DNA of 24,000 nt from Malonomonas rubra DSM 5091 (GCF_900142125.1 NZ_FQZT01000012.1:27965-51964), one strand, 5' to 3'; shown: positions 1-12,784, numbered from the stretch's first letter. Notes: a model not told the origin generated them from the sequence alone. Translations and numbers: made by a program.

Positions 1-903
1 AGGCGTAATGCCTCTCCCTTTCCAGTCAGCCATTTCAACACTATCGGGTGGAACACTTCCCCCAATGAAAGTGAAGCGCTCTTTCAAGTCATCAAATCTC
101 TTTCCGTCAGCGGCTACAGCATTGAGAAGATAGCGCATGGGAGGGTCGTTGGCACTGTACCCGACCAAAACGATATGGTAGAGGCGTGCGACATCATAAA
201 TAAAATCTGGCACGACCCGTCTTCTCAAATAGAACTCGCCAAAATCCTGATCAGTAAGTATCAAGTCCACATTTCGGGATGGATCAGAATCCAATGCACC
301 GTGGATATGTAAAACTCCGGAGAAGTCCTCTCTACGCCCAGGCCTTGGGATTCCTCCGAGGGTATATGTTTCAACTTTCTGACCTTGATTACGCGAGGCT
401 TTTTCCAACAGAAGATCGAAGTTGGTCGTTGCGATTGCCACAGCCCCACCACGATCAGACAAGCGCATAAGCGATCGATGAACCGGACTTGGCTTCGAGC
501 CTTTAGTAAGGAGTAGAGTTCTTACCGCTTGCCTGACCTTGCTTTTTGCGTGCGGGTCATTATCAATCCGACGTTCAAGTAAACCCAAAACGACATCATA
601 ATCTTTTTGAACAAACCTCCTCACCTCTGCTGATTGGCCTTCATTTAAAGTCGAAAGATCTGGCTGATAACAATCGGGAGCATTGGAAGGGATGATGGAG
701 ATAACTGCGTGAACTGCTTGATCTAGAATACTATACACCTGAAGCACTAAATCTCTAAAATCAGGTAACGTTGGCCGCGAGATACCGGCACCCGCAATAA
801 AAAGGACCTCACCTCTAGCGTGAGCCAGCAATAGCCTCTCTGGGATCGCTGGGAGGCCAGGTCCTAAAGGAATAATTCGATCGCTTGCTAGGCTTTTATT
901 CAT
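1..903 (-). CDS. SIR2-family (SIR2_2 / ThsA-DSR-like) NAD-binding domain protein; N-terminal 301 aa, C-terminus outside the window
   Basis: Absent from the ORF track because it runs off the window. ATG at 903-901. I checked every in-frame triplet down to nt 1 and found no stop. The translation begins MNKSLASDRIIPLGPGLPAIPERLLLAHARGEVLFIAGAGISRPTLPDF. Later segments are AIATTNFDLLLE, GVLHIHGALD and IVLVGYSANDPPMRYLL. These carry the GAGxS, TTNxD, HxHG and VGYSxxD motifs typical of defence-type sirtuin domains. Confidence 0.75.
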   Translation of the reverse strand, partial: MNKSLASDRIIPLGPGLPAIPERLLLAHARGEVLFIAGAGISRPTLPDFRDLVLQVYSILDQAVHAVISIIPSNAPDCYQPDLSTLNEGQSAEVRRFVQKDYDVVLGLLERRIDNDPHAKSKVRQAVRTLLLTKGSKPSPVHRSLMRLSDRGGAVAIATTNFDLLLEKASRNQGQKVETYTLGGIPRPGRREDFSGVLHIHGALDSDPSRNVDLILTDQDFGEFYLRRRVVPDFIYDVARLYHIVLVGYSANDPPMRYLLNAVAADGKRFDDLKERFTFIGGSVPPDSVEMADWKGRGITP

Positions 904-971
904 TACATTTCACCGACTTAACATACAGACAACAGAGACGACAGATATCCGCCATGCCTACATCTGTTGCG

Positions 972-1952
972 TCAATAAACCATCTCATCCCTTGAATCAT
1001 GCCAATGTGGATTTATCTTTCCGTCTTTGAGCGGTGTGTTGTCCTCTATTGGGCCGATAATCGCTTCAAGCTTTTCACGCCACCCCTTGCGCGAATACCA
1101 GTTACGCACCTTCAATGCTTCTTCAGAATCAGCAACCGAGCGGCTTTCTGCTGCAGTAAAAATGTAATCTTCTGGATACCAGCCGACATGAGAGCGATGT
1201 TCCATCAGGGGCCCAGGAAAAATCTGCCCTTCCATAATTGCCTCAATCTCATCGGCCTCCATGACACAGCCTTTGAAGTAGATGCCGAGCATGTGCGCGA
1301 TTAGCGTTTTGGCCTTAAGCTGCATTCGCGTGCGTTCGTAGCCCCAGTAAATCTGGTCTCCTAGTGGGTAGTAGCGCCAGATAGAATCTTGGCAGCAGTC
1401 GCCCCAATGATCGAGTTCCACCCTGAACAAAAGAGCGATAAAAAAACAATCACAAGGGCCGTGTGACTCGATACTTTTCTGCAATTTGTCTTCTGGTCGT
1501 TTAATCGCGAATCCTTGAATAGCAACACCTGACTTTTTCAGCTCAAGCAAAAAATCTATATAGCTTGACAAGTCGTCGTTGTGACCGAGATAGGGGTATA
1601 TTGGCACATCCTTACCATCCAACCAGTCCCGCTGAACACCAAAACTGTCACAAGTTGTTTGCAGCAATTTTTCGTTGAGAGCTTGGAGCAACTTTTCGTC
1701 GGTACTAACGTCGACAAGCGAAAGCCCGCCCTCCTCTCCGAGAAACCTTGGAATCTGGGTTCGCTCTATGCCATGTGACTTGTATATCTGCACAAATCGT
1801 TCAACCAGAGAAAACACTTCACTAGTTTTGGGCTGTTCTTCTTGTTGATTTTGCCCGACTAATGATTCGGCTGATTTTCTAGTTACCCATCGCCAAAAAG
1901 CGTATATGCCCCCAATCACAGCAAATAAAGAAGCGATTGTTTCAAGCATCAC
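972..1952 (-). CDS. Hypothetical membrane-anchored protein (326 aa), no recognisable family
   Basis: ORF-track ORF. Its start (GTGATG at 1952-1947) overlaps the hsdS stop TGA (1951-1949), implying translational coupling. The N-terminal hydrophobic helix LETIASLFAVIGGIYAFWRWV is followed by a Q/E-rich linker and a soluble part of about 280 aa rich in Trp/Tyr/Cys. I recognise no catalytic motif. Confidence 0.7.
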   Translation of the reverse strand: MMLETIASLFAVIGGIYAFWRWVTRKSAESLVGQNQQEEQPKTSEVFSLVERFVQIYKSHGIERTQIPRFLGEEGGLSLVDVSTDEKLLQALNEKLLQTTCDSFGVQRDWLDGKDVPIYPYLGHNDDLSSYIDFLLELKKSGVAIQGFAIKRPEDKLQKSIESHGPCDCFFIALLFRVELDHWGDCCQDSIWRYYPLGDQIYWGYERTRMQLKAKTLIAHMLGIYFKGCVMEADEIEAIMEGQIFPGPLMEHRSHVGWYPEDYIFTAAESRSVADSEEALKVRNWYSRKGWREKLEAIIGPIEDNTPLKDGKINPHWHDSRDEMVY

Positions 1953-3664
1953 GCCACCAAAAGCTGCCGAACGGTAGCTTCCAAAAGTTTTTCGCTGTGC
2001 TGCTCGGTTTGGTTGAGCTTAACTTCGAGTTCGTCGCAAAGGGACATAAGTTGATCAACCTTGGCAACGATGCGTTTTTGCTCCGAGGTAGAGGGGACTG
2101 GCACCTCTATCGCTTTAATTTTGCCAATATATAAGCATGGCTGTGCAGACTGTTTAACATTGCCCCAAATTTGATTTTGCCCAACAGGGCTACGAAGCAA
2201 AACCGATAGGTACTCAGGCAAAATCCCTGGAGTAAACGGGCGGATTAAAGCAACACTCCTGACTAAAACGAAGTCTTCAGGGTCTTTGATTACAGTCAAA
2301 CGACCAGTGGTCGCTCCGACACACACCATCAAAATATCATCATGTCTCGGGTAGCACCTTCTCCAACATTTTTCTGCTGTTTCTTCGGATACAAAATCCG
2401 TGACTCGCAGATCAACATACCCATCCCTTATATTTTTTGCTGTTGCCAAAGGCACTCCTGAAGCAACTCTCGGAGGCGTCGAATGCTCCCCATCTGTAAC
2501 TAGCAACGTCACATCCTGAAAACGTGACCATACCCAACCATCTGGAACTGGATGCAGAAGACCCTCAACCTCAGGAAGCGTTTTGTCCTTCTTAATAGCC
2601 TTCTCCTTAACCAGCCTCTCCTTTTCAGCCTTAATCCTTTTCAGCAAAACCGAAGCAGGCTCATCGTTGGGATCTTGGGGGACGAGCTTGCCCTGAACTG
2701 CGAGCTGGAGGATGGCTGCGCGGAGTTTGGCGATGGTTTCGGGGTGGTCGTAGAGCAGGTCGAAGTTGGTGCTGATGCGCTGCCAGTGGTCGGCGAATTC
2801 GTCGGGTTCGCGGGCGGTGAGCAGTGCGTCGAGGGCGGCGTTGTTGAGGCGCACCCGCCCCTGCTGCTGCATTTGCTGGCGATCTTCGAGTTCGTCGCAC
2901 AGGGCCATGAGTTGGTCGACCTTGGCGACTATGCGTTTTTGTTCTTCGAGGGGTGGGAGAGGGATCGGAACTTCATTTGCCCTCGAAATTGTCAGCGTAT
3001 GAACCGTGGTCCCCATGCTTTCTTTATGAATCGTATCAATCCAATATGGAGTCCTCAGAAGACAACTTAGGAACCGAGAATATAAACCATAGTGGTTTTT
3101 AAAAATCAGAACGCTCGCGTCCTTGAAGTAAAATCTGTCTGAGTTTTTGACTATATACGGGATGCCAATCGTTCCAACCCCAGTGATCATCAGGTCGTTT
3201 TCTTCTGGCACTAATCCACCATTTGACAACTCCTGAAACAATTCCTCAGAAATAAAAAGCTCATTATTCACAGTTCCGAACTGTGAGAGTTTGACTATCT
3301 CTCTCGCCCTAAGAAAAGGGACCCCCTTGCTTTTCCAATCTTTTTTATGAACTCGACTGCTTGAGCCAATCAACCCCAGCGCACCAAATCTGCACCACTC
3401 CCATGCCCTTGGAAGCTCGAAAGGGATACCATCCTCGGAGATAGGAGGTAGAGTCTTGGGTGGCTTTATTCTTCCCTCAGTTACAAGTCTTTCTTTTGCA
3501 ATCTTAATTTTCTCCAGCAAAACAGAAGCAGGCTCATCGCTCGGATCTTGCGGCACTAGCTTCCCCTGCACCGCAAGCTGAAGAATCAACTCCCGCAGCT
3601 TTTGCACCCCGTTGGGCGCATCGACCAGATGTCCAAAATTGGCAAAGAACGTCTCGGCGGTCAT
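1949..3664 (-). CDS. hsdS: Type I restriction-modification specificity subunit HsdS (two target-recognition domains)
   Basis: 571 aa. Duplicated conserved helices ILQLAVQGKLVPQDP[S/N]DEPASVLL and [E/S]EQKRIVAKVDQLM[A/S]LCDELE flank two divergent TRDs. There is a 4-nt overlap with hsdM. Confidence 0.9.
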   Translation of the reverse strand: MTAETFFANFGHLVDAPNGVQKLRELILQLAVQGKLVPQDPSDEPASVLLEKIKIAKERLVTEGRIKPPKTLPPISEDGIPFELPRAWEWCRFGALGLIGSSSRVHKKDWKSKGVPFLRAREIVKLSQFGTVNNELFISEELFQELSNGGLVPEENDLMITGVGTIGIPYIVKNSDRFYFKDASVLIFKNHYGLYSRFLSCLLRTPYWIDTIHKESMGTTVHTLTISRANEVPIPLPPLEEQKRIVAKVDQLMALCDELEDRQQMQQQGRVRLNNAALDALLTAREPDEFADHWQRISTNFDLLYDHPETIAKLRAAILQLAVQGKLVPQDPNDEPASVLLKRIKAEKERLVKEKAIKKDKTLPEVEGLLHPVPDGWVWSRFQDVTLLVTDGEHSTPPRVASGVPLATAKNIRDGYVDLRVTDFVSEETAEKCWRRCYPRHDDILMVCVGATTGRLTVIKDPEDFVLVRSVALIRPFTPGILPEYLSVLLRSPVGQNQIWGNVKQSAQPCLYIGKIKAIEVPVPSTSEQKRIVAKVDQLMSLCDELEVKLNQTEQHSEKLLEATVRQLLVA

Positions 3665-5130
3665 GCCGACTCCCCCGCCGCATCGGTAGCCCGCTCCAAC
3701 GCATCCATCAACTCCTGCTTCAGCTTTTCACGAGTCTCGGAAACACTGGCGAGCAGTGTTTTATACTCGGCCAGCAGCTCTTCGGGATCGCCGTGGTCAG
3801 CCTCGACGGTGTTGGGGTTCTTGATATCGAGGTTGTAGCCGTTGACCTTGATCTGTTCGACCGAAACCTTCCACGCCTGCTCGCTCTCCACCCGGTTCTG
3901 CCACCATGCCTTCTCGGGCGCGAACTCTTCGATGCGCATCGGCTTGGTCTTGGAGTAGCTCTTGTACCCTTCGGGATAGGGGTGCTCGTAGTACCAGACC
4001 TCCTTGGTCGGCTCCCCCTTGGTGAAGAACAGCAGGTTGGTCTTGATGCCGGTGTAGGGGTTGAATACACCGTTGGGCAGACGTACCACGGTGTGCAGGT
4101 TGCAATCTTCGAGCAGCTTTTCTTTGATACGGGTCTTGACGCCTTCACCGAACAGGGTGCCGTCGGGCAGAACGATGGCGGCACGACCACCAGTTTTGAG
4201 CAGGTGCATGATCAGCACCAGGAACAGGTCGGCGGTTTCACGGGTACGGAAGCTGGCCGGGAAATTGGCCTCGATGCCGTCCTCTTCGGTGCCACCGAAC
4301 GGAGGGTTGGTGACCACCACATCAACTCGATCCTTGGGGCCATAATCACGTAGGGGGCGCGACAGGGTGTTGTCGTGACGGATGTTGGACGGCACTTCGA
4401 CACCGTGCAGCAGCATGTTGGTGGTGCAGAGCAGATGCGGCAGAGCTTTTTTCTCAACGCCGAAGACCGATTTCTGCAAAAGCTGCTCATCCTCAGCGGT
4501 CTTCACGTAATTGCCGCGTACATGTTCGATGGAACAGGAGAGGAAGCCGCCGGTGCCGCAGGCCGGATCGAGGAGCTTCTCACCGAGTTTCGGATCGACC
4601 ATGTCGACCATGAACTGGGTGACGGCACGCGGAGTGTAGAACTCCCCGGCGTTGCCCGCGCTCTGCAAGTCCTTGAGGATCTGCTCGTAGATGTCGCCGA
4701 AAGTATGGCGGTCGGTGGAGCGGTTGAAGTCGATCTCGTTGATCTTGTTGACCACCTGACGGATGAGGGTGCCGTTCTTCATGTAGTTGTAGGCATCCTC
4801 GAATACCGAGCGCACCACCAGGCCGCGCCCGTTGGTTCCGGCGTTCAGCTCCAGCTCCTTGAGGCTCTTGAACAGGTCGTTGTTGATAAAGTCGAGCAGT
4901 TCGTCGCCGGTAATTCCTTCGCTATCGGCAGCCCAATTGCGCCAGCGCAGTTGCTCGGGGATGGGAGAGCTGTATTCGTCGGAGAGGAGTTCCAGCTCCT
5001 GCTCCTGATCATCGAAAATTTTCAGAAAGAACATCCAGACAAGCTGGCCAATCCGCTGCGCATCGCCGTCAACCCCGGCGTCCTTGCGCATAATGTCCTG
5101 GATGGATTTGATGGTGGTGGATACTGACAT
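3661..5130 (-). CDS. hsdM: Type I restriction-modification N6-adenine DNA methyltransferase subunit HsdM
   Basis: 489 aa. SAM-binding motif I is LDPACGTGGFL and catalytic motif IV is VVTNPPFGG. The N-terminus is HsdM_N-like. AAGGAG Shine-Dalgarno sequence (SD) lies just upstream, overlapping the hsdR stop. Confidence 0.95.
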   Translation of the reverse strand: MSVSTTIKSIQDIMRKDAGVDGDAQRIGQLVWMFFLKIFDDQEQELELLSDEYSSPIPEQLRWRNWAADSEGITGDELLDFINNDLFKSLKELELNAGTNGRGLVVRSVFEDAYNYMKNGTLIRQVVNKINEIDFNRSTDRHTFGDIYEQILKDLQSAGNAGEFYTPRAVTQFMVDMVDPKLGEKLLDPACGTGGFLSCSIEHVRGNYVKTAEDEQLLQKSVFGVEKKALPHLLCTTNMLLHGVEVPSNIRHDNTLSRPLRDYGPKDRVDVVVTNPPFGGTEEDGIEANFPASFRTRETADLFLVLIMHLLKTGGRAAIVLPDGTLFGEGVKTRIKEKLLEDCNLHTVVRLPNGVFNPYTGIKTNLLFFTKGEPTKEVWYYEHPYPEGYKSYSKTKPMRIEEFAPEKAWWQNRVESEQAWKVSVEQIKVNGYNLDIKNPNTVEADHGDPEELLAEYKTLLASVSETREKLKQELMDALERATDAAGESA

Positions 5131-5146
5131 ATTGGAAAGTTACTCC

Positions 5147-7495
5147 TTATCCTGCGGTTCCATAGAGTTGTTGTTCGAGCTCACGTAGAGCAAGTTCAAA
5201 CTGTTTACGGCCGCCAAATTGCCGAACGATCTCAATCGGCGTACCGAATCTGTCGAGCGGCTGAACACGTAGCACCTTGAGATCTTCGATGCTTTCCACG
5301 CCCTCATCGGCATACTTATCGAGCAACGCGTCTAATACCGCTTTGGCCTGCTCGCCGTACTTTGCAAAGTAATTTCGTTTGCGGACATTCTCCGCACGTT
5401 CGCGCCTTGTCAGTGGCGGCTGGTCGAAAGCAACATGGCAAATCAAATCGAAAGGTCCGAAGTCCTTTCCGACCTCATCTGCCAGGGCATCCCAGAGGAT
5501 TCCCTCTTCTGCGAGTTCATCAATAACTGCCTGTTTCTTATCTGCCTCACTCCAGTGACGGATAAAGTCACGCAGAGTCTTAAATTCCTTTGCTACAGTC
5601 TTTTTGGTGTAGTCCTTGAGCGATTCGGTAATCAACTTGCCATCTGGGCCGTAGTATTGGACCCGCTCAGCAACCACATAAAAAGGAACATCGCCAACGA
5701 CATATTTCTTGCGCGGCTCAGGCTCTGGCCCGTCGCCAGGGGGAATAGGCGGAGGTTCAGGATGATCAGGGGGCTCACCATCTTCTGGTGGTTCTGGTGG
5801 AACAGGAGGGTCATCTGGACCAGGCTCGTAGATTTGCACCGGGTCACCATCAAAATCGGGATCGGCAAATAACTCTGTCGCCTTTTTGAAGTCGATGATG
5901 GTGAAGTAATACTTGTCGTAATCCTCGTTGATACGGGTACCACGACCGATGATCTGTTTAAAGGTTGTCATCGAGTTGATGGTCTGGTCGAGGACAATCA
6001 GTTTGCAGGTCTGGGCATCAACCCCCGTGTTCATCAGTCGGGAAGTCGTTGCAATCACCGGGTAGCGACTTTCTGGGTCGATAAAATTGTCGAGCTCCAT
6101 CTTGCCGAGATTGTCATCTCCGGTGATTTTCATCACGTACTTGCTGTTTTCTGCGGCGAGATCCTTGTTCGCGTTGACCAGTTCCTGCCGCATCCGCTCG
6201 GCGTGATCTATATCTTCACAAAAGACGATAGTCTTATCGAAACGGTTACTGGCCTTGAGGAATGCTGTGATCTTCTGCGCCACCAGTCGGGTGCGCAGCT
6301 CCATCACCAGCTCCCTGTCCATATCTTTGAGGTTGTAGATCCGGTCAGGGATTAGGTTGCCACTCCTGTCAACCTGGCCAGATTCAGGTCGCCAACCCTG
6401 AAGGTCTTTATCGAGATCGATCCGCACCACCTTGTAGGGAGCGAGGAAGCCATCATCGATTCCCTGCCGAAGGGAATATGTGTAGACCGGTTCGCCGAAG
6501 TAGTGAATATTGCTAACGTCCTTTGTTTCCTTCGGGGTTGCAGTCAAACCGACATGCGTGGCAGTGGAGAAATAATCGAGAATCTCCCGCCATGCAGAAT
6601 CTTCGGCGGCGCTGCCACGATGACATTCGTCGATCACCACCAAGTCGAAGAAATCTGGGGAGAACTGCTTGTAGATATTTTTTTCTTCCTCGTTGCCGGT
6701 CACCGCCTGATAGAGAGACAGGTAGATCTCGTATGACTTGTCGGCCTGACGCTTTTCGATCTTGGTCATTGCCGGACCAAACGGTTTGAAGTCGTTAGTC
6801 TTGGTCTGGTCGACAAGGATATTGCGGTCAGCAAGGAAGAGGATGCGTTTCTTGGTGCGAGACTTCCACAGACGCCAGATGATCTGGAATGCAGTATAGG
6901 TTTTTCCGGTTCCGGTAGCCATGACCAAAAGCAGCCGGTTTTGCCCCTTGGCTATGGCCTCAACCGTGCGATTAATGGCGACCCGCTGGTAGTAACGTGG
7001 TTCTTTTCCACTGCCGTCGGCATAATAGGGCTGCTCGACGACATCTTCAACCGAAGGCCCTATTTTCTTCCACTGCTTATAACGTTGCCAAAGGTCTGCT
7101 GGTGACGGGAACTGTTCGAGAGAGAGTTGCTGCTCTACTGAGTCAGACAGCCCTGTACGATCATGAAAAAGAAATCCATCTCCGTTGGAGCTGAACGCGA
7201 AAGGCACATCGAGGATCTCGGCATAGTCGAGTGCCTGCTGCATGCCGTGTCCGATACTGTGAGTATTATCTTTCGCCTCGATAATGGCGATAGGTTGGTT
7301 CGGTTTGTGGTAAAGGACGTAATCGGCGCGCTTGGCCTTGCCACGGGAATGCAGCTTGCCGCGGACAATGATGCGCCCAGCCGTAAATGTGACCTCTTCG
7401 CGAACCTGCGTGTGGGTATCCCAGCCGGAAGAGAGGACTGCCGGGAGAATGAACTTGGTGCAGATATCGCGCTCAGACAGGTCTTTCTTCGACAT
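5147..7495 (-). CDS. hsdR: Type I restriction enzyme endonuclease/translocase subunit HsdR (EcoEI/EcoAI-like, family IB-type C-terminal domain)
   Basis: 782 aa. The N-terminal PD-(D/E)xK nuclease motif is ADYVLY...IAIIEAKD. Walker A is [11 protein letters not shown] and the DEAH box is VIDECHR, followed by helicase C motifs. After a Pro/Glu-rich linker, the C-terminal roughly 170 aa resemble the EcoEI_R_C domain. Confidence 0.93.
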
Positions 7496-7643
7496 TGCAA
7501 CCCCCCACTGATAAGCAATCTACCGATCATAGCGAAATCACATTGGTTTTACCATCTCTATATTGGCTGTGTTCCTCTCTACAGATTTCATCGGCGCCCC
7601 TCTTTGAAACTCGCAAATAACATCAATGGCATCTACCGGAGTT

Positions 7644-7770
7644 CAAATGGAATCCATCTGGACTCCACTTCCGGACATTTTCCAATTGTGCGCAGTACAG
7701 CTCGGCAAAGTGGAATCCAATTGCAATCCAAATGGATTCCATTCTGCGATTCCACAACTATCGATTCCGG
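7644..7770. repeat. Phased array of the 9-bp palindrome TGGANTCCA (candidate operator or iteron cluster) upstream of hsdR
   Basis: Copies are TGGAATCCA 7648-7656, TGGACTCCA 7659-7667, TGGAATCCA 7711-7719, TGCAATCCA 7722-7730 and TGGATTCCA 7733-7741. Degenerate copies end at 7754 and 7769. Start-to-start spacing within clusters is 11 bp and between clusters 63 bp, so all copies lie on the same helical face. Three copies share the longer unit CAAA(N)TGGA(A/T)TCCA. Confidence 0.55.
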
Positions 7771-8162
7771 CAATAACCACAGCTCAGCGTTGACCATTTT
7801 CGCGCCGGCGTGGGGCAGCGCCTACGGGAGCCCCCCAAACCGTACCCTTGCCGCTCAAAAAAATAGGTACGCAAGAAAATAATTACTATAATTCAGAAGG
7901 TTAAGTCGTCTTTCCCGGAATGGAAATTAGCAAAAATCGACCCGTGAACCAAATTTAAAAAAGGCGCCTAAAGCCGCTTTTTCAATCTGCAGAGCTTAAA
8001 AGTGGGATGCTATTATGTCCCCATCATAGCTGCCGGGGATACGGTATCGTCCGCATAGACCAAGGGCATCGACCCTACGGTTTCATCTCACGCAGTAAAC
8101 GATTAGGTAGCTGGCCGAATAAACAGCCTGAACTCATGGCGAATTAGACCGCCTCAAACTCA

Positions 8163-8750
8163 GAGTGGCAGGACCACTCGACCAAACACGCTGCAGTCCG
8201 GACCTACACATGGGTTCGGGCTGCAGCACTAAAACATGGATGCAAGTGCATCCAACAACCAGAAGCCGACGCACTTCTGGTTTACATAGCCCACCTATAT
8301 CGTCTGGGCACTACGGCGAGAATCCCCATCAGTAATCAACGCTGAGCTCTCGCCCGAAAAGATTTCTGCTGCGAGCCCCTCGCTACAGAAAGTTACGTGG
8401 TCGATTCAGGGAAGATGACACAGTCCGAATCAAGCCACTATAAACAGACCGCACTGGTGGCGATAAGTTGCCTTCGGTCACCACCCTCCTGCCTTCCCAT
8501 CCGACGCTGCGACATTCTCGGCATTTGCCGTTCCCATTAGGCGCAGCGTCACCGTCTTGAAAATCCTGCCTTTATGTCCCGGAACCGTTAGGTTCGGACA
8601 CTTTGGCAATGCGATGCGTCATCGCATTATGAAGCTTCGGCATTGGTTGTAACAACTGACGCCCGCGCCTCCCTTGCCTATCTATTTATTTAGATAGGAG
8701 CAATGGCGTTAAGGCTTCGTAGGGGACCTGCCTGGGAGACTCCTGTCTCC
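8163..8750 (+). other. Hairpin-dense ORF-free segment; candidate structured RNA, long 5' leader or cis-acting DNA site cluster
   Basis: No ORF of 60 aa or more in any frame between 7883 and 8690. Stem-loops found by eye:
- 8163-8179: GAGTGG/CCACTC.
- 8191-8226: 14 bp including 2 G.U pairs.
- 8238-8253: GGATGCA/TGCATCC.
- 8259-8280: CCAGAAG/CTTCTGG.
- 8503-8550: GACGCTGCG/CGCAGCGTC, enclosing CGGC-ATTT-GCCG.
- 8575-8600: imperfect, GTTA loop.
- 8608-8628: AATGCGATG/CATCGCATT.
- 8677-8698: CCTATCTA/TAGATAGG.
- 8735-8750: GGAGAC/GTCTCC.
The G.U pairs in 8191-8226 would be A.C mismatches on the minus strand, so the plus strand is weakly favoured. Confidence 0.3.
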
Positions 8751-8845
8751 AACGTGATCGGCCGTAGCCATCTCAACATTAAGTTGACCTTGAAAGAAAA
8801 GGAAACAGGCGTCGAAAAAACGAATTTGAACAAAGGAGAACGGAA

Positions 8846-9787
8846 ATGAAATGCGGCAGCGAGAAAAACAACGGCTGGGGAACGCCTCTGATATGGGCAT
8901 GCCTCCAAGCCCTCAAACACAGATACGGCAAAGGGTGCTACGCGACTTTAGCGACCCACAAAGCTCATTTAACTCATTTTGCGAAGTACCTGAAGGCCCA
9001 CAACATCAACGATATCATGCGGGTGTCTGTGGAGGTGTTGCTTGCCTACGCAACATGCGTGCAGGAAAAACACAGCAATAACTATGCAAGGAACCTGATT
9101 AGCAGTGCGAACATCATCGTTGAGTCTGTCCGCGGCGATCGCAAGGTCCGGCTCGACCCATCGGAGGTTCTGGCACGTCGACAATCTGCCCGCAAGGATG
9201 CACCAGCAGGGCTAAATCTTGATGATGTCAATCGGGCAGCAGAGAGCCTCACCGAGAACGGCTACCCGAGAATCGCCGTCCTCATTCTGCTGATCAGACA
9301 TTTCGGAATGCGGCTCAAGGAGGGCTGCCTTATTGATCTCCGTGTCGCGTTACGACAAGCTAAAAAGCACGGGAAGATCGATGTGCGTCGAGGGACAAAA
9401 GGCGGTAGAGGCCGAACAATCGAAAGGTGGGTGCCTGCCACGGAACAAGCAATTGAGGTGCTGGTTCAGGCTCAAGCCTTTAGCTCAAAAGAAACAGGAA
9501 GCCTTATTCCGTCTGATATGAGTTCGGTTGAGTTTATGCGGCTGGCGAAAAGGGTATGGCGAAAAGTTAGGAAGGAATTTGGTCTCAGCAAAATCCACGA
9601 TCTGCGTTCAGCGTTCGCCTGCGATCGATATAAACAACTGACTGGCCATGATGCCCCGGCATGCCATCGCGGGAATCTCTCCGCGACGAAAGAGCAAGAC
9701 CGAAAAGCTCGCGATGTCATCGTTAAGGAGATTGGGCATGGAAGCCGTGGGCGCATGGCACCTTATGTCGGGCGAGGTGCGCGATGA
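8846..9787 (+). CDS. Tyrosine recombinase / phage-integrase-family protein
   Basis: 313 aa. GGAG SD sits 8 nt before the ATG. The full catalytic set is visible in order: Arg in HFGMRLKEG, Lys in RGTKGGRGRTI, His-x-x-Arg in IHDLRSAFA, then GH and Tyr in EIGHGSRGRMAPYVG. Confidence 0.7.
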   Translation: MKCGSEKNNGWGTPLIWACLQALKHRYGKGCYATLATHKAHLTHFAKYLKAHNINDIMRVSVEVLLAYATCVQEKHSNNYARNLISSANIIVESVRGDRKVRLDPSEVLARRQSARKDAPAGLNLDDVNRAAESLTENGYPRIAVLILLIRHFGMRLKEGCLIDLRVALRQAKKHGKIDVRRGTKGGRGRTIERWVPATEQAIEVLVQAQAFSSKETGSLIPSDMSSVEFMRLAKRVWRKVRKEFGLSKIHDLRSAFACDRYKQLTGHDAPACHRGNLSATKEQDRKARDVIVKEIGHGSRGRMAPYVGRGAR

Positions 9788-10224
9788 GGTGGGAGATAGG
9801 CCCAACTAGGGCACAGCGTGAAGCCACAGACTTTATCAAAAGTCGGCTACAAGGCAGTAAGAAAGGCATTGGCCGACAGCTCAAAGAGTGTCTGCGTGTG
9901 ATCTCGGTTATCAATGGGAAATTCGGTGTCGGCATCTATAACCTGAAATGCAGCCATCTGCACTGGTATTTGTCCGTGTACGACAAGGACCATAGCCCCA
10001 AGACGCGAAATAACCACTGGTACGCCGTATTAAGAATTATCGAAGCCTTGGGCAAAGAGGCTGATTGGAAGCCAAGACTTTCCAGTGGCCCCTGGGTTCG
10101 AAAGAACGGTGATTACTCTAAGCCAATCGAAATACGGCGTCCGAGCAAAAAGGCCACGCCATCCTTCCGAGGTAGGAGGCAAACTACACCAACAGCCACT
10201 CACAAAAATCGAAAAAGGCGCTAA
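9784..10224 (+). CDS. Hypothetical protein (146 aa) with a basic C-terminal tail, translationally coupled to the tyrosine recombinase
   Basis: ATGA start/stop overlap with the upstream gene at 9784-9787. No motif recognised. The Lys/Arg-rich C-terminus is RRPSKKATPSFRGRRQTTPTATHKNRKRR. Confidence 0.5.
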   Translation: MRWEIGPTRAQREATDFIKSRLQGSKKGIGRQLKECLRVISVINGKFGVGIYNLKCSHLHWYLSVYDKDHSPKTRNNHWYAVLRIIEALGKEADWKPRLSSGPWVRKNGDYSKPIEIRRPSKKATPSFRGRRQTTPTATHKNRKRR

Positions 10225-10336
10225 ATGACGTTTTTTCGGAACTCATTTTTAAAATCAAGCTGTCAAACTGACACTGTAATTAAAAATTAAAACTACGGGT
10301 TCCCGACAAGACTTCGAAGTGGGCCAAGGAGCAGAC

Positions 10337-10519
10337 ATGTTTGATCGAGACAAGATAGCGACCCTCATAAATAAAAGAGTCAACCGGGTACTTCAATACG
10401 CTGAAGCATCATTACCACAAAGTCAATTCCGAGCATTTCGGAAGTTAGTACTCGATGAATTCGGCGACAACGGAATGGCTAAAGACTTAAACAAAATGGG
10501 ACGGAACGGGCAGGAATAG
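10337..10519 (+). CDS. Small hypothetical protein (60 aa from the ATG; the track lists a 66-aa GTG-start version from 10319)
   Basis: AAGGAG at 10326-10331 lies 5 nt upstream of the ATG at 10337. The sequence looks helical and no family is recognised. Confidence 0.4.
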   Translation: MFDRDKIATLINKRVNRVLQYAEASLPQSQFRAFRKLVLDEFGDNGMAKDLNKMGRNGQE

Positions 10520-10547
10520 ATTATGCGAAGAAGGAGGTGCGCCATGA

Positions 10548-10688
10548 GTGGATAGCGCAAGCCGCAACAGTGACCAATTGGCAAACGAATATTCCGAATG
10601 GCAAGACAAACCACTACCGGAAGAAATACGACTTATTCAGACACACTTAGCAGACATATTGGAAGATATGTTTCAAGAATCAAACTGA
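10548..10688 (+). CDS. Unlisted small acidic ORF (46 aa, GTG start): MDSASRNSDQLANEYSEWQDKPLPEEIRLIQTHLADILEDMFQESN
   Basis: Below the size cutoff of the ORF track. A perfect AAGGAGG at 10531-10537 lies 10 nt before the GTG at 10548. Its TGA (10686-10688) overlaps an ATG at 10688 that is in frame with the resolvase-like gene. The sequence reads like a real helical protein. Confidence 0.35.
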   Translation: MDSASRNSDQLANEYSEWQDKPLPEEIRLIQTHLADILEDMFQESN

Positions 10689-11137
10689 TGGAGAAGAAAA
10701 TGATTGTAGCCCTTTACGCTCATGCATCACCCGACAGGCAAAGGGAAAATGAACCCTTTGCATCTAACCAAATATCTCGAATGAGGGCCCTTTGCGAGGC
10801 ACAGGGTTTTTCTGTCGCTACTGAATATATTGAGACTGAAGACACTGACACAGAACATCACACCCCAATGTTTAAGAAAATGATTTCTGAGGCCACTGAA
10901 GAAACGGTTCCTTATGACGCCATAATAGTAAGCAGCTGTTCAGGACCGTTTCAGCATGAAGTCACATATGCCATCTACAAGCATCATTTGGGCAAACATG
11001 GTGTCGATCTTATCGATGTAGACCAGCGGAGCCTTGATGAAACCTTTTCCGTGAAGATATTGCGTCTCGTCCTTTCTTCTTATGAGGCCCCCCTTAAAAA
11101 CGACCACATTCTTAGAGATTGGGTGCTAGACAAATGA
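10688..11137 (+). CDS. Resolvase-domain-only serine-recombinase paralog, probably catalytically inactive
   Basis: The track lists 10598-11137, but alignment with the next gene starts at MIVALY (ATG 10700, GGAG 6 nt upstream; alternative ATG at 10688). MIVALYAHASPDRQ aligns with MIVALYARVSTTKQ, and IIVSSCSGPFQHE with IIVHSLSRFFRE. Ser10 is kept. Arg8 is replaced by His, and the two SR..R arginines by Gly and Gln. It has no recombinase or zinc-ribbon domain. ATGA overlap with the next gene at 11134-11137. Confidence 0.7.
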   Translation: MEKKMIVALYAHASPDRQRENEPFASNQISRMRALCEAQGFSVATEYIETEDTDTEHHTPMFKKMISEATEETVPYDAIIVSSCSGPFQHEVTYAIYKHHLGKHGVDLIDVDQRSLDETFSVKILRLVLSSYEAPLKNDHILRDWVLDK

Positions 11138-12750
11138 TAGTTGCACTATACGCTCGCGTATCAACTACAAAGCAGGCCGAAAAGGATCTTTCGATCCCTG
11201 ATCAACTGGGCCAGATGAGGGATTGGTGCAAGTGGCAGGGCCATTCCATCGCTGCTGAGTACAATGAACCCGGAGCTTCTGCAACTGATGACCGTCGGCC
11301 AGTATTTCAACAGATGATAGCCGATGCTTGTGTAAATCCAGCACCCTTTAGCGCAATTATTGTCCATAGCCTGTCACGCTTTTTTCGTGAAGCCATCGAA
11401 TTCGGTATCTATGAAAAGAAGTTGGCCAAACAAGGAATCAGTATTGTCTCAATCACTCAACCGACCAACGATGACATCACTGGAGACCTGATCCGAAGGG
11501 TTATTAATGTCTTTGACGAATATCAAAGCAAAGAGAACGGAAAACACACTCTGAGAGGTATGCAAGAGAATGCTCGCCAAGGCTTTTTCAATGGAGCGAG
11601 ACCACCTTATGGCTATCGTGCAGTCGAAACTGAGCTTCCTGGTAAAAACGGTAAAAAGAAAAAGCTGAAGATTGACGAAAGAGAAGGGCCAACTGTCAAA
11701 AAAATCTTCGACCTTTATTTGAACGGCCACAGAGGGAAAACTCTGGGCGCCTACGGAATCTCCTGTCATCTGAACACGCTGGGAGAAACCCATCGAAGCA
11801 AAGAATGGAGTAGTGCGACCATCCTCTATATACTTAAAAACACTGCCTACATAGGCGAGTACTATTTCAATAAATTTGACTCCAAAAACAGAAAACCCAA
11901 ACCGAAAGAGCAGTGGATTTTGATTCCTGTTCCCTTGCTTATCGATAAAGAAGATTTTGAACGCGTGCAAAACCTTATCAAGGAAAGGGATCCACAGAAA
12001 ACTCCTGCACGCGTCACCAATTCGCCAACCCTGTTAACCGGTCTTCTCAAGTGCTCTTGTGGTGCGAGAATGACACTGGCAACTGGGAAAGGCGGCAAAT
12101 ACCGCTACTACAAATGCACAACGCGGATCAATCGAAACAAGCAAGCCTGCGACAGCTCAAGCATACCGGTCGAGACTTTGGACAGGCTCATCCTTGATGC
12201 AATCTCTGATAAAGTTTTCACTCCTCAAAGGGTCGCTGCAATGCTGAGAATGCTTCAAGAGCAGGTCAAGAATTCGCGCTCAAAGCATGATGGCGAACTA
12301 CTCTCCCTCAAAAAGGAACTTGCCCAAGTAGAGCAATCTCTCAGCCGACTCTACGAAGCGATCGAAAATGGCCTTGTCGCTCTCGATGAGACACTAAAAC
12401 AACGTACACAGAACAACCAGTACAAACGTCAAGAGATTCTGACCGAAATAGCCCGAGTAAAAAAGGAAAGCGAATCAGATTTCGATCAACTCGGACCAGA
12501 AAATGTTTTGCTCTTCTGCAATGCACTGAAGGCGAAGCTACATGACAGCTCGTCAAATTTCGGCAAAAATTATCTTAAATTGCTGATCGAAGATATCACT
12601 GTAGACGGAAAAGAAGTTCGTATCACAGGGAGCTATGCTGCTCTGGCGGGCGCACTGGAAAAAACAAAGGCGGGCGACTCGTCACGAGTGCCCACCTTTG
12701 GTGTGGTATGGCTCCCTTTGCTGGGCTCGAACCAGCGACAATCTGATTAA
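11134..12750 (+). CDS. Large serine recombinase (resolvase domain + recombinase domain + zinc ribbon + coiled coil)
   Basis: The track ORF 11119-12750 uses a TTG start; the likely start is ATG 11134 (MIVALYARVSTTKQ). Visible elements are the catalytic R8/S10, SRFFRE, GARPPYGY, the zinc ribbon CSCGARMTLATGKGGKYRYYKCTTRINRNKQAC, and a coiled coil ELLSLKKELAQVEQSLSRLYEAIENG. The last 42 nt overlap tRNA-Asn on the opposite strand. Confidence 0.9.
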   Translation: MIVALYARVSTTKQAEKDLSIPDQLGQMRDWCKWQGHSIAAEYNEPGASATDDRRPVFQQMIADACVNPAPFSAIIVHSLSRFFREAIEFGIYEKKLAKQGISIVSITQPTNDDITGDLIRRVINVFDEYQSKENGKHTLRGMQENARQGFFNGARPPYGYRAVETELPGKNGKKKKLKIDEREGPTVKKIFDLYLNGHRGKTLGAYGISCHLNTLGETHRSKEWSSATILYILKNTAYIGEYYFNKFDSKNRKPKPKEQWILIPVPLLIDKEDFERVQNLIKERDPQKTPARVTNSPTLLTGLLKCSCGARMTLATGKGGKYRYYKCTTRINRNKQACDSSSIPVETLDRLILDAISDKVFTPQRVAAMLRMLQEQVKNSRSKHDGELLSLKKELAQVEQSLSRLYEAIENGLVALDETLKQRTQNNQYKRQEILTEIARVKKESESDFDQLGPENVLLFCNALKAKLHDSSSNFGKNYLKLLIEDITVDGKEVRITGSYAALAGALEKTKAGDSSRVPTFGVVWLPLLGSNQRQSD

Positions 12751-12784
12751 CAGTCAGATGCTCTACCAACTGAGCTAAAAGGGA
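12709..12784 (-). tRNA. tRNA-Asn (anticodon GTT), CCA encoded
   Basis: The minus-strand sequence is TCCCTTTTAGCTCAGTTGGTAGAGCATCTGACTGTTAATCAGATTGTCGCTGGTTCGAGCCCAGCAAAGGGAGCCA. It folds by hand into a clean cloverleaf:
- 7-bp acceptor stem TCCCTTT/AAAGGGA.
- D arm GCTC/GAGC.
- Anticodon stem TCTGA/TCAGA with loop CTGTTAA.
- T arm GCTGG-TTCGAGC-CCAGC.
- Discriminator G followed by CCA. Confidence 0.93.

What the first reader, a model, noticed from the sequence alone, without database searches (positions are those of the whole stretch)
1..7495. Type I R-M operon extended by two extra co-directional genes (unknown membrane protein + SIR2): candidate composite defence module
Five genes lie in one orientation with minimal or overlapping junctions.
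- hsdR/hsdM: the hsdM SD overlaps the hsdR stop.
- hsdM/hsdS: 4-nt overlap.
- hsdS/orf326: stop/start overlap.
- orf326/SIR2: 68-bp gap.
SIR2_2-type domains are established NAD-depleting effectors in Thoeris, DSR and SIR2-HerA systems. Accessory effectors are also known to be physically embedded in type I R-M loci, with PrrC in EcoprrI as the precedent. I do not recognise an R-M system hard-wired to an unknown TM protein plus a sirtuin as a named system.
Basis: partly seen in the sequence, partly recalled or inferred. Interest (0 to 1): 0.72.

Follow-up and report, generated by a model that had tools for sequence, protein, structure and literature searches.

The report
Restriction operon with stacked defence cargo
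A complete type I restriction-modification operon on a mobile island of Malonomonas rubra is followed by an uncharacterised gene that habitually travels with such operons, and then by a separate, already named kind of NAD-destroying sirtuin defence system split into two genes; the five genes are stacked modules, not one hard-wired system.

Summary
Five co-directional minus-strand genes (hsdR, hsdM, hsdS, orf326, SIR2) have exactly the junctions described.

The SIR2 gene is not a partner of orf326. It is a 401-aa protein followed, with a 4-nt overlap, by a 906-aa protein left of the window. Together they match the two parts of Dsr1. The pair recurs without orf326, once directly after hsdS of the same R-M lineage and once without any type I R-M.

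orf326 has no Pfam, NCBIfam or PADLOC match. Its family has 824 cluster representatives. In 39 non-redundant loci the family co-occurs with this SIR2 only in M. rubra. In 14 of 25 loci with at least 8 kb of upstream sequence it sits downstream of a complete co-directional type I R-M. These involve several HsdR types and gene orders, and what follows it varies (CBASS-like, GmrSD, AAA, MazG or nothing).

The AF2 model (pLDDT 85) shows an N-terminal hydrophobic helix, an XRE-like HTH and an α/β domain. Homologues replace the N-terminus with TIR, SEFIR, DUF4062, nuclease or Schlafen modules. IncI1 plasmid TraE is a distant relative.

Best reading: a defence island with modular cargo, in which orf326 is a new candidate R-M-linked defence gene. 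A PrrC/Ronin-like backup role is inferred, not shown.

The parts
5147..7495 (-). hsdR, type I restriction subunit (782 aa), EcoEI/IB-like
   Evidence: Pfam ResIII 2e-47, EcoEI_R_C 1e-35, HSDR_N, Helicase_C. PADLOC REase_I 1227 bits. The D...EAK nuclease motif and the DECH box are visible in the translation.
3661..5130 (-). hsdM, N6-adenine methyltransferase subunit (489 aa)
   Evidence: Pfam N6_Mtase 5e-79 and HsdM_N. PADLOC MTase_I 815 bits. NPPFG and DPACGTGGF motifs are present. A 16-nt spacer with AAGGAG overlaps the hsdR stop.
1949..3664 (-). hsdS, specificity subunit (571 aa, two target-recognition domains)
   Evidence: Pfam Methylase_S with two stretches. PADLOC Specificity_I 522 bits. 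ATGA overlap with hsdM.
972..1952 (-). orf326 (325/326 aa), member of an uncharacterised, type I R-M-linked family and distant relative of IncI1 TraE
   Evidence: No Pfam, PADLOC or NCBIfam hit. 39 close homologues and 824 representatives at E<=1e-3. The start overlaps the hsdS stop. AF2 pLDDT 84.9, pTM 0.79.
1872..1952 (-). orf326 N-terminal hydrophobic/amphipathic helix (residues ~1-27), then an R/K-rich stretch
   Evidence: AF2 helix 2-32. KD19 1.59 with a 16-residue uncharged run, amphipathic in some orthologues. Replaced by TIR, SEFIR, DUF4062, nuclease or Schlafen modules in homologues.
1620..1820 (-). orf326 XRE/CI-like helix-turn-helix region (residues ~44-110); holds most invariant residues (R51, H59, G60, R63, Q65-R68, W109)
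   Evidence: Alignment A1. Foldseek hits to TP901-1 CI NTD (prob 0.85) and the lambda-186 repressor, and to many phage CI/XRE proteins (prob 0.8-0.98). No Pfam HTH hit.
1038..1571 (-). orf326 C-terminal alpha/beta domain (residues ~127-304), fold unassigned
   Evidence: AF2 secondary structure alpha-beta-beta-beta-alpha-beta-alpha. Only weak Foldseek hits to RNase H-like folds, E 0.1-2. No invariant acidic residues in A1 or A4.
904..971 (-). 68-nt spacer between orf326 and SIR2
   Evidence: Read directly. Only a weak hairpin without a T-run.
1..903 (-). First 301 codons of a 401-aa SIR2 protein, the first gene of a two-gene split Dsr1-like system (906-aa partner lies left of the window)
   Evidence: Pfam SIR2_2 2e-18. 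PADLOC Dsr1 5e-39. Full locus L001: the 401-aa protein matches Dsr1 positions 8-351 and the 906-aa protein matches positions 464-1272. NCBIfam Dsr1 188 and 123 bits. GAGIS, TTNFD and HIHG motifs are present.
8846..12784 (.). Mobile-element end of the island: tyrosine integrase-like gene (8846-9787), small ORF, two serine recombinase genes (10598-11137, 11119-12750) and tRNA-Asn (12709-12784, minus strand)
   Evidence: Pfam Integrase_1, Resolvase, Recombinase, Zn_ribbon_recom. tRNA-Asn from Rfam and ARAGORN. Core genes lie to the right (MglA/MglB-like, menaquinone, SerA, PilZ, T2SSE).

Best explanation
The region is the upstream part of a one-strand array of defence genes, about 11.7 kb from the hsdR start to the PDC-S11 stop. 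It sits on an integrative island that abuts tRNA-Asn in Malonomonas rubra. The array is built from separable modules.

(1) A complete, apparently functional type I R-M operon (hsdR-hsdM-hsdS, EcoEI/IB-like).

(2) orf326, whose start overlaps the hsdS stop. It belongs to an uncharacterised family that is preferentially carried at or near the 3' end of type I R-M operons of several HsdR types.

(3) A two-gene split Dsr1-like system: a 401-aa SIR2 NADase plus a 906-aa partner equivalent to the Dsr1 C-terminal region. It works on its own as an NAD+-depleting abortive-infection system.

(4) Beyond that, a PDC-S11 candidate nuclease gene.

SIR2 is therefore a neighbour of orf326, not its effector.

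For orf326 I infer a second-line, infection-sensing protein coupled to the R-M system, with PrrC/Ronin-type logic. It would be made together with HsdS. Its conserved cytoplasmic core (XRE-like HTH plus alpha/beta domain) would act as sensor or switch. Its N-terminal module would be the output: in this clade a hydrophobic, membrane-directed helix; in relatives TIR, SEFIR, DUF4062, a nuclease or Schlafen.

Shown: gene content, junctions, family membership, neighbourhood statistics, domain swaps. Inferred: co-translation, sensing, membrane output, any dependence on HsdMS.
For: Modularity:
- The SIR2 protein is 401 aa and is followed, with a 4-nt overlap, by a 906-aa protein.
- The two map to Dsr1 positions 8-351 and 464-1272 in PADLOC and to the NCBIfam Dsr1 model.
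- All 120 best SIR2 homologues are 379-443 aa long, so the split is a conserved form.
- The pair recurs in Pelotalea (L063) without type I R-M or orf326. It also recurs in L064, directly after hsdS of the same R-M lineage (HsdM 90%, HsdR 82% identical), with no orf326.
- Genes downstream of orf326 homologues vary: E1/E2/JAB + patatin, AAA + GmrSD, GmrSD, MazG-like, or nothing.

R-M linkage of orf326:
- 18 of 39 non-redundant loci carry co-directional upstream type I R-M genes. Among loci with at least 8 kb of upstream sequence, 14 of 25 carry a complete type I R-M.
- These span EcoEI_R_C-type, T1R_D3-type and roughly 930-1155-aa HsdR types and at least five gene orders.
- The start overlapping the hsdS stop recurs in orthologues down to 35% identity.
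- In L015 a 47-codon hsdR remnant sits directly upstream, indicating a decayed R-M.
- By comparison, the cargo system TgvAB lies inside type I R-M in 79 of 1,341 cases.

Defence character of orf326:
- Homologues carry N-terminal TIR_2, SEFIR/bSEFIR, DUF4062, Cap4/LmuA/SduA-type nuclease or Schlafen AlbA_2 modules.
- Neighbours include GmrSD, Zorya-like genes, a KwaB-like gene, Mrr, PLD nuclease/KAP NTPase/QatB, and PDC-S11.
- orf326 diverges much faster than, and not in step with, HsdM: 68/67/51/35% against 95/91/71/82%.

Precedents: PrrC, and RonA, a 61-aa membrane protein tightly linked to hsdS/hsdM that causes cell death when anti-restriction proteins are expressed.
Against: - There is no experimental datum for any family member.
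- The N-terminal helix is only borderline transmembrane and is amphipathic in some R-M-linked orthologues.
- By a rough motif-and-hydropathy screen, about half of the representatives in which the motif was found have a short N-terminus with no recognisable effector or hydrophobic helix. The effector-swap argument therefore rests on a minority.
- The IncI1 TraE branch is not R-M-linked, and by eye it carries an RHH-like N-terminus (inference from the sequences printed). That points to DNA binding or regulation.
- About 40% of well-flanked loci have no type I R-M nearby, so R-M cannot be strictly required.
- The locus sample came from two peptide patterns of the close subfamily and is not an unbiased census.
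- L064 shows that RM + SIR2 adjacency also recurs, so some functional tie between this R-M lineage and the SIR2 pair is not excluded.
Confidence: 0.45

Rival explanations
1. orf326 is an autonomous single-gene defence or conflict protein. It lands at the 3' end of type I R-M operons only because that site is a recombination hot spot for defence cargo, as for TgvAB or DarTG2. It has no functional dependence on the R-M enzyme.
For: - About 40% of well-flanked loci lack type I R-M.
- The TIR fusion P0029 sits in a defence island without R-M.
- In distant relatives other cargo (Mrr, DUF4357, AAA_21, KwaB-like) separates the family member from the upstream R-M genes.
- The same post-hsdS site holds SIR2 + 906 in L064 and GmrSD-type genes elsewhere.
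- Embedding of unrelated systems in type I R-M is documented.
Against: - Linkage of 14/25 is far above the 79/1,341 reported for TgvAB, and it spans several R-M families and gene orders.
- The start codon overlapping the hsdS stop is kept down to 35% identity.
Confidence: 0.27
2. orf326 is a DNA-binding regulator of the R-M operon or island, analogous to C-proteins, RptR or BrxR. Its XRE-like HTH would bind DNA and its C-terminal domain would sense a signal.
For: - XRE/CI-like HTH fold.
- Relatives have an additional HTH_3 domain.
- The plasmid TraE proteins show, by eye, an RHH-like N-terminus (inference from the sequences printed).
- RptR, a dedicated regulator, shows a similar level of R-M linkage, 54/117.
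Against: - The gene lies at the 3' end of the operon, not upstream.
- The N-terminus is hydrophobic.
- TIR, SEFIR and nuclease fusions are not expected of a repressor.
- The HTH residues are nearly invariant across very divergent members. That fits one conserved ligand better than locus-specific operators.
- There is no sequence relation to RptR, which is 79 aa.
Confidence: 0.15
3. One reading: hsdRMS, orf326 and SIR2 form one hard-wired composite system in which orf326 links R-M status to the sirtuin effector.
For: - The genes are co-directional with tight spacing and no convincing terminator.
- The SIR2 pair follows hsdS of the same R-M lineage in a second locus, L064.
Against: - SIR2 accompanies orf326 homologues in 1 of 39 loci.
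- L064 has RM + SIR2 + 906 without orf326, and L063 has SIR2 + 910 without type I R-M.
- SIR2 has its own conserved 906-aa Dsr1-type partner.
- orf326 orthologues are followed by unrelated systems.
Confidence: 0.08

Closest known systems
PrrC / EcoprrI (anticodon nuclease embedded in a type I R-M locus)
   Same: An accessory gene is placed directly after hsdS inside a type I R-M gene cluster (locus order from my own knowledge). The concept is a latent suicide function kept in check by the R-M complex (summarised).
   Different: orf326 has no ATPase or anticodon-nuclease domain and no sequence match in Pfam, PADLOC or NCBIfam. No trigger or interaction is known.
Ronin (RonA + HsdS/HsdM decoy; bioRxiv 10.1101/2023.04.06.535777)
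   Same: A protein with a hydrophobic helix is tightly linked to hsdS/hsdM. Ronin's proposed logic is that anti-restriction proteins binding HsdMS release a membrane-active effector.
   Different: RonA is 61 aa and consists only of the membrane segment. Ronin usually lacks hsdR. orf326 is 326 aa with an HTH + alpha/beta core, sits in a complete R-M-S operon, and its helix is only borderline transmembrane.
Dsr1 (defence-associated sirtuin 1)
   Same: The best PADLOC and NCBIfam match for both the SIR2 gene and its downstream partner is Dsr1. There is an N-terminal SIR2_2 domain with GAGIS, TTNFD and HIHG motifs and a long C-terminal region.
   Different: It is encoded as two genes (401 + 906 aa, 4-nt overlap) instead of one protein of about 1,260 aa. 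Scores of 188 and 123 bits are far below the equivalog cut-off of 1,400. The split form is itself widespread.
Defence cargo embedded in type I R-M operons (TgvAB in Vibrio VPI-2; DarTG2 with RptR in EPEC)
   Same: Unrelated defence genes are inserted in or next to type I R-M operons and co-oriented with them.
   Different: Those systems are placed between hsd genes and belong to other protein families. TgvAB is inside type I R-M in only about 6% of occurrences, against about half for the orf326 family sample.
TraE of IncI1/IncK plasmids (R64 traE)
   Same: Distant homologue of the orf326 core: hhalign against family profile A4 gives Prob 96.4%, E 1e-9 over 186 columns. A Yersinia plasmid 'TraE' gives Prob 99.7%. 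Function is also unknown.
   Different: It is plasmid-borne in the transfer region and is not R-M-linked. It is dispensable for conjugation. Its N-terminus is not hydrophobic and looks RHH-like by eye.

Membership tests
Type I restriction-modification system | HsdR with an N-terminal PD-(D/E)xK nuclease region and an SF2 translocase | tested here: met
   HSDR_N, HSDR_N_2, ResIII, Helicase_C, EcoEI_R_C. REase_I 1227 bits.
Type I restriction-modification system | HsdM N6-adenine methyltransferase and HsdS with two target-recognition domains, encoded together | tested here: met
   N6_Mtase 5e-79, HsdM_N, and Methylase_S with two stretches. ATGA overlap between hsdM and hsdS.
Type I restriction-modification system | Methylation of a bipartite site and ATP-dependent restriction | not testable with these tools
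   Needs methylome and restriction assays.
Dsr1 | N-terminal SIR2 NADase domain with catalytic Asn/His motifs | tested here: met
   SIR2_2 2e-18. Dsr1 profile positions 8-302 and 57-351 matched. TTNFD and HIHG motifs are in the translation.
Dsr1 | Single polypeptide of about 1,250 aa carrying SIR2 and the C-terminal region | tested here: not met
   Two ORFs of 401 and 906 aa with a 4-nt overlap. The same split is seen in L063 and L064. All 120 top homologues are 379-443 aa.
Dsr1 | Score above the NCBIfam equivalog cut-off | tested here: not met
   188.4 and 123.3 bits against a cut-off of 1,400.
Dsr1 | Phage-triggered NAD+ depletion | not testable with these tools
   Experimental.
Thoeris | ThsA (SIR2-SLOG) together with a ThsB TIR gene | tested here: not met
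   ThsA profiles match only weakly, 1.6e-6. No TIR gene is present in L001.
SIR2-HerA | Adjacent HerA-type ATPase | tested here: not met
   The downstream 906-aa protein has no Pfam domain on record and matches only the Dsr1 C-terminal region.
PrrC-type R-M-embedded anticodon nuclease | ABC-ATPase-like N-domain plus anticodon nuclease C-domain | tested here: not met
   orf326 has no Pfam, PADLOC or NCBIfam hit. The AF2 model shows an HTH plus a small alpha/beta domain.
Ronin | A roughly 61-aa membrane peptide RonA linked to hsdS/hsdM, usually without hsdR | tested here: not met
   orf326 is 326 aa with a structured core, and hsdR is present. No direct sequence comparison with RonA was run.
orf326 / IncI1-TraE-like family (unnamed) | Conserved core: RF..H-G-[IV]-x-R-x-Q-I-P-R-F ... 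W-L-D-G HTH region followed by an alpha/beta domain with W/Y-P-E/D-D-Y | tested here: met
   Alignments A1 and A4. 824 representatives. TraE hhalign Prob 96.4-99.7%.
XRE/CI-type helix-turn-helix | Five-helix XRE fold recognisable by sequence or structure | tested here: inconclusive
   No Pfam HTH hit. Foldseek gives local matches to CI/XRE domains with probability 0.85-0.98 but E values of 0.05-0.5.
Integral membrane protein | At least one hydrophobic segment long enough to span the bilayer | tested here: inconclusive
   16-residue uncharged run, KD19 1.59, <H> 0.70. The helix is amphipathic in orthologues P0009, P0016 and P0038.

The most novel reading that the evidence does not exclude
The orf326 family would be a new, widespread class of guard proteins for type I R-M systems. 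The conserved HTH + alpha/beta core would dock on, or read out the state of, the HsdM2S (or R2M2S) complex or its DNA substrate. When phage anti-restriction factors disable the enzyme, the core would release an N-terminal suicide module: a membrane helix here, and TIR, SEFIR, DUF4062, nuclease or Schlafen modules in relatives. The long-unexplained IncI1 TraE would then be a plasmid-borne offshoot of an immune sensor.
Probability: 0.22. Interest if true: 0.75.

Novelty: new variant of a known kind. Interest (0 to 1): 0.5.

Why it matters
The arrangement as first described (R-M + TM protein + SIR2) is an ordinary defence-island stack, and the sirtuin belongs to a named family.

What remains is a gene family with no model in Pfam, NCBIfam or PADLOC. 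It has hundreds of diverse members and an unusually strong, multi-lineage linkage to type I R-M operons. Its pattern of N-terminal module swaps is typical of immune sensor-effector proteins.

If it proves to be an R-M-coupled backup system, it would add a third and much more widespread example, after PrrC and Ronin, of bacteria guarding their restriction enzymes. It would also give a function to IncI1 TraE.

The conserved two-gene split form of Dsr1 is useful in its own right. It separates the NADase from its presumed sensor, which makes the activation mechanism easier to dissect.

Tried and rejected
- **Exact-sequence look-up of the GTG-start orf326:** found nothing. The ATG-start product P0001 was on record.
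- **PDB sequence search with the family profile:** only chance hits, IP3 receptor at E 0.1.
- **Foldseek against PDB:** no match at E<=0.001. Only local HTH matches and weak RNase H-like hits, which I treat as a lead, not a fold assignment.
- **Phage sources:** no family member in viral contigs or in GenBank phages. One unnamed BFVD protein matches structurally at E 7.6e-5 and could not be followed up.
- **Wider alignment A4:** too diverse to seed a metagenome scan.
- **RptR, the known R-M-proximal regulator:** 79 aa, placed upstream, not related.
- **The 290-aa gene between hsdR and hsdM in L064:** not a family member (hhalign Prob 0.7%).
- **PADLOC hits of fusion proteins:** checked for coverage of the conserved core. 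All lie in the N-terminal 170 residues or less, so the core is not a known PADLOC candidate.
- **A catalytic role for the C-terminal domain:** rejected for lack of invariant acidic residues.
- **A recent frameshift as the cause of the SIR2/906 split:** rejected because the split is conserved.

Full report
**Source and observation.** The window comes from Malonomonas rubra DSM 5091. The ATG-start product of orf326 is 100% identical to a hypothetical protein of that strain. Five genes lie on the minus strand: hsdR 5147-7495, hsdM 3661-5130, hsdS 1949-3664, orf326 972-1952, and a SIR2 gene that starts at 903 and runs off the left edge.

- hsdR/hsdM: hsdR TAA, then 16 nt, then the hsdM ATG, with AAGGAG overlapping the stop.
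- hsdM/hsdS: ATGA.
- hsdS/orf326: GTGATG.
- orf326/SIR2: a 68-nt gap with only a weak, non-T-rich hairpin.

Pfam and PADLOC confirm a complete type I R-M of the EcoEI_R_C (IB-like) kind and a SIR2_2 domain.

**What the SIR2 gene is.** Its best PADLOC match is Dsr1 (5e-39), far ahead of ThsA or other SIR2 models. The same locus from a public assembly (L001) supplies the missing sequence. The SIR2 protein is 401 aa. It is followed, with a 4-nt overlap, by a 906-aa protein with no Pfam domain, and then by a 359-aa NucS_C-like protein.

In PADLOC the 401-aa protein covers Dsr1 positions 8-351 and the 906-aa protein covers positions 464-1272. The third gene is PDC-S11 (2.6e-157). NCBIfam's Dsr1 model agrees, at 188 and 123 bits, both far below its equivalog cut-off of 1,400. 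The locus therefore encodes a divergent Dsr1 split into two genes.

The split is not a sequencing accident. All 120 best homologues of the SIR2 protein (60-76% identity, out of 1,488 hits) are 379-443 aa long. The SIR2 + ~906-910-aa pair with the same 4-nt overlap recurs in Pelotalea chapellei (L063) and in a metagenome contig (L064). There is no ThsB/TIR gene and no HerA gene nearby.

**Does SIR2 go with orf326?** No.
- In L063 the pair sits among a large MmeI/Eco57I-type methylase, an AAA_21 ATPase, an HNH protein and McrBC, with neither type I R-M nor orf326.
- In L064 the R-M operon is of the same lineage as in the window (HsdR 82%, HsdM 90%). The hsdS 3' end is nearly the same DNA (…TTTTGGTGGCGTGAT), yet SIR2 starts 18 nt after the hsdS stop and orf326 is absent.
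- Conversely, orthologues of orf326 that follow hsdS are themselves followed by other genes:
  - a 382-aa protein plus an E1/E2/JAB fusion plus patatin (CBASS-like) in Pelobacter seleniigenes;
  - an AAA ATPase plus GmrSD;
  - GmrSD alone;
  - a MazG-like gene;
  - unrelated housekeeping genes on the other strand.
- Among 39 non-redundant loci that encode a family member, a homologue of this SIR2 is present only in M. rubra.

The criterion that the pair matches a named system is met only for the SIR2 gene.

**What orf326 is.** It has no hit in Pfam, PADLOC or NCBIfam. A word-seeded search found 39 relatives. A profile search of 1.84 billion cluster representatives found 824 at E<=1e-3 and 243 at E<=1e-30.

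An AlphaFold2 model built on 37 homologues is confident (mean pLDDT 84.9, pTM 0.79). It shows three parts:
- a long N-terminal helix (residues 2-32);
- a five-helix region (about residues 44-110);
- an alpha/beta domain (about residues 127-304).

*HTH region.* This region holds most of the invariant residues: R51, H59, G60, R63, Q65-R68, W109, in the motifs HGIERTQIPRF and WLDG. It matches XRE/CI repressor DNA-binding domains locally in Foldseek (TP901-1 CI NTD at prob 0.85, and many phage CI/XRE proteins at prob 0.8-0.98), but with weak E values.

*C-terminal domain.* It gives only weak hits, all to RNase H-like folds (E 0.1-2). It has no invariant acidic residues, so I do not assign it a catalytic role.

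*N-terminal helix.* It is hydrophobic in this clade (KD19 1.2-2.45) but has only a 16-residue uncharged run in orf326. In several R-M-linked orthologues it is amphipathic with internal K/D residues. 'Membrane protein' is therefore plausible but not established.

**Linkage to type I R-M.** Gene maps of ten homologues, plus 15 genome loci and 29 metagenome loci, were scanned with the window's Hsd proteins and with three further Hsd sets. After clustering at 90% identity there are 39 loci.
- 18 have co-directional type I genes upstream.
- Of the 25 loci with at least 8 kb of upstream sequence, 14 have a complete R-M.
- Others carry remnants: in L015 a 47-codon hsdR N-terminal fragment (70% identical) lies directly upstream of the homologue; L024 has an hsdS fragment; in L033 a single roughly 600-aa gene lies between hsdS and the homologue.

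The R-M partners are of several types: EcoEI_R_C-type HsdR of about 780 aa, T1R_D3-type of 1,020 aa, and HsdR of about 930-1,155 aa that are only 25-30% identical to the window's. The gene orders also differ: R-M-S-x, M-M-S-R-x, R-S-…-x-…-M, R-S-…-M-…-x. The linkage is therefore not one inherited locus.

For comparison, TgvAB, a cargo system embedded in type I R-M, lies inside such clusters in 79 of 1,341 occurrences. RptR, a dedicated R-M regulator, is linked in 54 of 117. My sample was seeded with peptide patterns from the close subfamily and is not an unbiased census.

**Signs of a conflict function.** Within the family the N-terminal helix is replaced in some members by other modules:
- TIR_2 (for example P0029, in a defence island with GmrSD and another TIR gene);
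- SEFIR/bSEFIR;
- DUF4062;
- the N-terminal nuclease domain shared by CBASS endonuclease effectors, LmuA and SduA;
- Schlafen AlbA_2;
- in one case an extra HTH_3.

All PADLOC hits of these fusions lie within the first 170 residues or less, and the conserved core is never covered. One member carries a C-terminal TIR.

orf326 evolves faster than, and not in step with, its R-M neighbours. Its identities are 68, 67, 51 and 35%, where HsdM is 95, 91, 71 and 82%.

Two facts point the other way. By a rough motif-and-hydropathy screen, about half of the representatives in which the motif was found have a short N-terminus with no obvious effector. A plasmid branch also behaves differently. The 'TraE' of IncI1/IncK plasmids is dispensable for conjugation. 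It is a distant homologue (hhalign Prob 96.4%, E 1e-9; a Yersinia plasmid TraE gives Prob 99.7%). It occurs in 535 plasmids and is not R-M-linked. By eye it has an RHH-like N-terminus (sequence), which is my inference.

**How it most likely works.**
- *Shown:* the array is modular. orf326 tracks type I R-M, and SIR2 tracks its own 906-aa partner.
- *From established knowledge of the family:* the SIR2 + 906 pair acts like Dsr1/Dsr2, depleting NAD+ on infection and aborting phage growth (papers listed).
- *Inferred for orf326:* a second-line function coupled to the R-M system. Precedents are PrrC, and Ronin, in which a 61-aa membrane protein linked to hsdS/hsdM causes cell death when anti-restriction proteins are expressed.

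I put about 0.85 on the modular architecture and about 0.35-0.4 on the guard-type mechanism, giving 0.45 for the combined statement.

**Context.** The array lies on an integrative element. To the right of hsdR are a tyrosine-integrase-like gene, two serine recombinase genes and tRNA-Asn. Core genes follow: MglA/MglB-like, menaquinone/futalosine genes, SerA, PilZ and a T2SSE ATPase. To the left, beyond PDC-S11, L001 has a resolvase, a KfrA_N protein and an HTH/peptidase S24 repressor. A related island with the same recombinase and KfrA genes carries the L006 version.

**Verdict.** The five-gene 'composite module' is a stack of separable defence modules on a mobile island. That is ordinary for the R-M and the sirtuin, which are of known kinds, although the Dsr1 here is a conserved split variant. 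orf326 is the interesting part: an undescribed family with strong type I R-M linkage and immune-style domain swaps. Novelty: a new variant of a known kind (R-M-associated accessory defence). Interest 0.5.

Noticed in passing
window 1-903 and L001:11047-14969: Dsr1 is encoded here as two genes (SIR2 401 aa + 906 aa, 4-nt overlap). The split form is conserved and common: all 120 top homologues are 379-443 aa, and the same pair occurs in L063 and L064. It may deserve its own subtype, since NCBIfam and PADLOC model only the fused form.
   Followed up: partly
L001:15032-16111; L017:3048-3962; L038:1521-2609: A PDC-S11 (NucS_C-like) candidate defence gene lies near orf326-family genes in three separate loci: about 4 kb downstream in M. 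rubra, about 460 bp downstream in L017 (weak match, 32% identity over 68 residues, E 1e-4), and 132 bp upstream in L038 (58% identity). This is more than expected for a rare gene, but the sample is small.
   Followed up: partly
L064:12205-12451 (matches window ~3696-3943, the 3' end of hsdM): A second copy, about 250 bp long, of the hsdM 3' end (83% identical to the M. rubra hsdM) lies downstream of the SIR2 + 906 pair in L064. It looks like a scar of cassette exchange by recombination within hsd genes.
   Followed up: no
L015:9796-9999: A 67-codon ORF whose first 47 residues are 70% identical to the N-terminus of the window's HsdR sits directly upstream of an orf326 homologue. This is a type I R-M locus that has lost nearly everything except the accessory gene. 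A PLD nuclease, a KAP NTPase and QatB follow.
   Followed up: partly
L062:2890-3711 (IncK2/Z plasmid pSTEC032) and L060:7803-8927: IncI1/IncK 'conjugal transfer protein TraE', which is dispensable for conjugation and of unknown function, is a distant homologue of the orf326 core. By eye it appears to carry an N-terminal ribbon-helix-helix-like motif. Relatives are found in 535 plasmids.
   Followed up: partly
window 8846-12784: The island end holds an Integrase_1-like gene, a 146-aa ORF whose start overlaps the integrase stop, two serine recombinase genes (the 543-aa one overlaps the 3' part of tRNA-Asn at 12709-12784), and then host core genes. The attachment site was not mapped.
   Followed up: partly
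window 7496-8845: A 1.35-kb stretch between the hsdR start and the integrase gene has no ORF of convincing size (one 48-codon gene is called in L001). Related loci have a small HTH gene immediately upstream of hsdR (L006:3792-4070), but M. rubra does not.
   Followed up: no
model m8459223a0a00 vs BFVD A0A7G8Z7W6: One unnamed viral protein (264 aa) matches the whole orf326 model (Foldseek E 7.6e-5, 290 columns), although sequence searches of phage genomes and viral contigs found no family member.
   Followed up: no
L018:2739-9812: In Desulfurivibrio sp. D14AmB an 858-aa protein and SbcD-like and SbcC-like proteins (425 and 1,083 aa, recognised only by their N-terminal motifs) lie between hsdR/hsdS and the orf326 homologue. 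No hsdM was detected on the contig part held.
   Followed up: no
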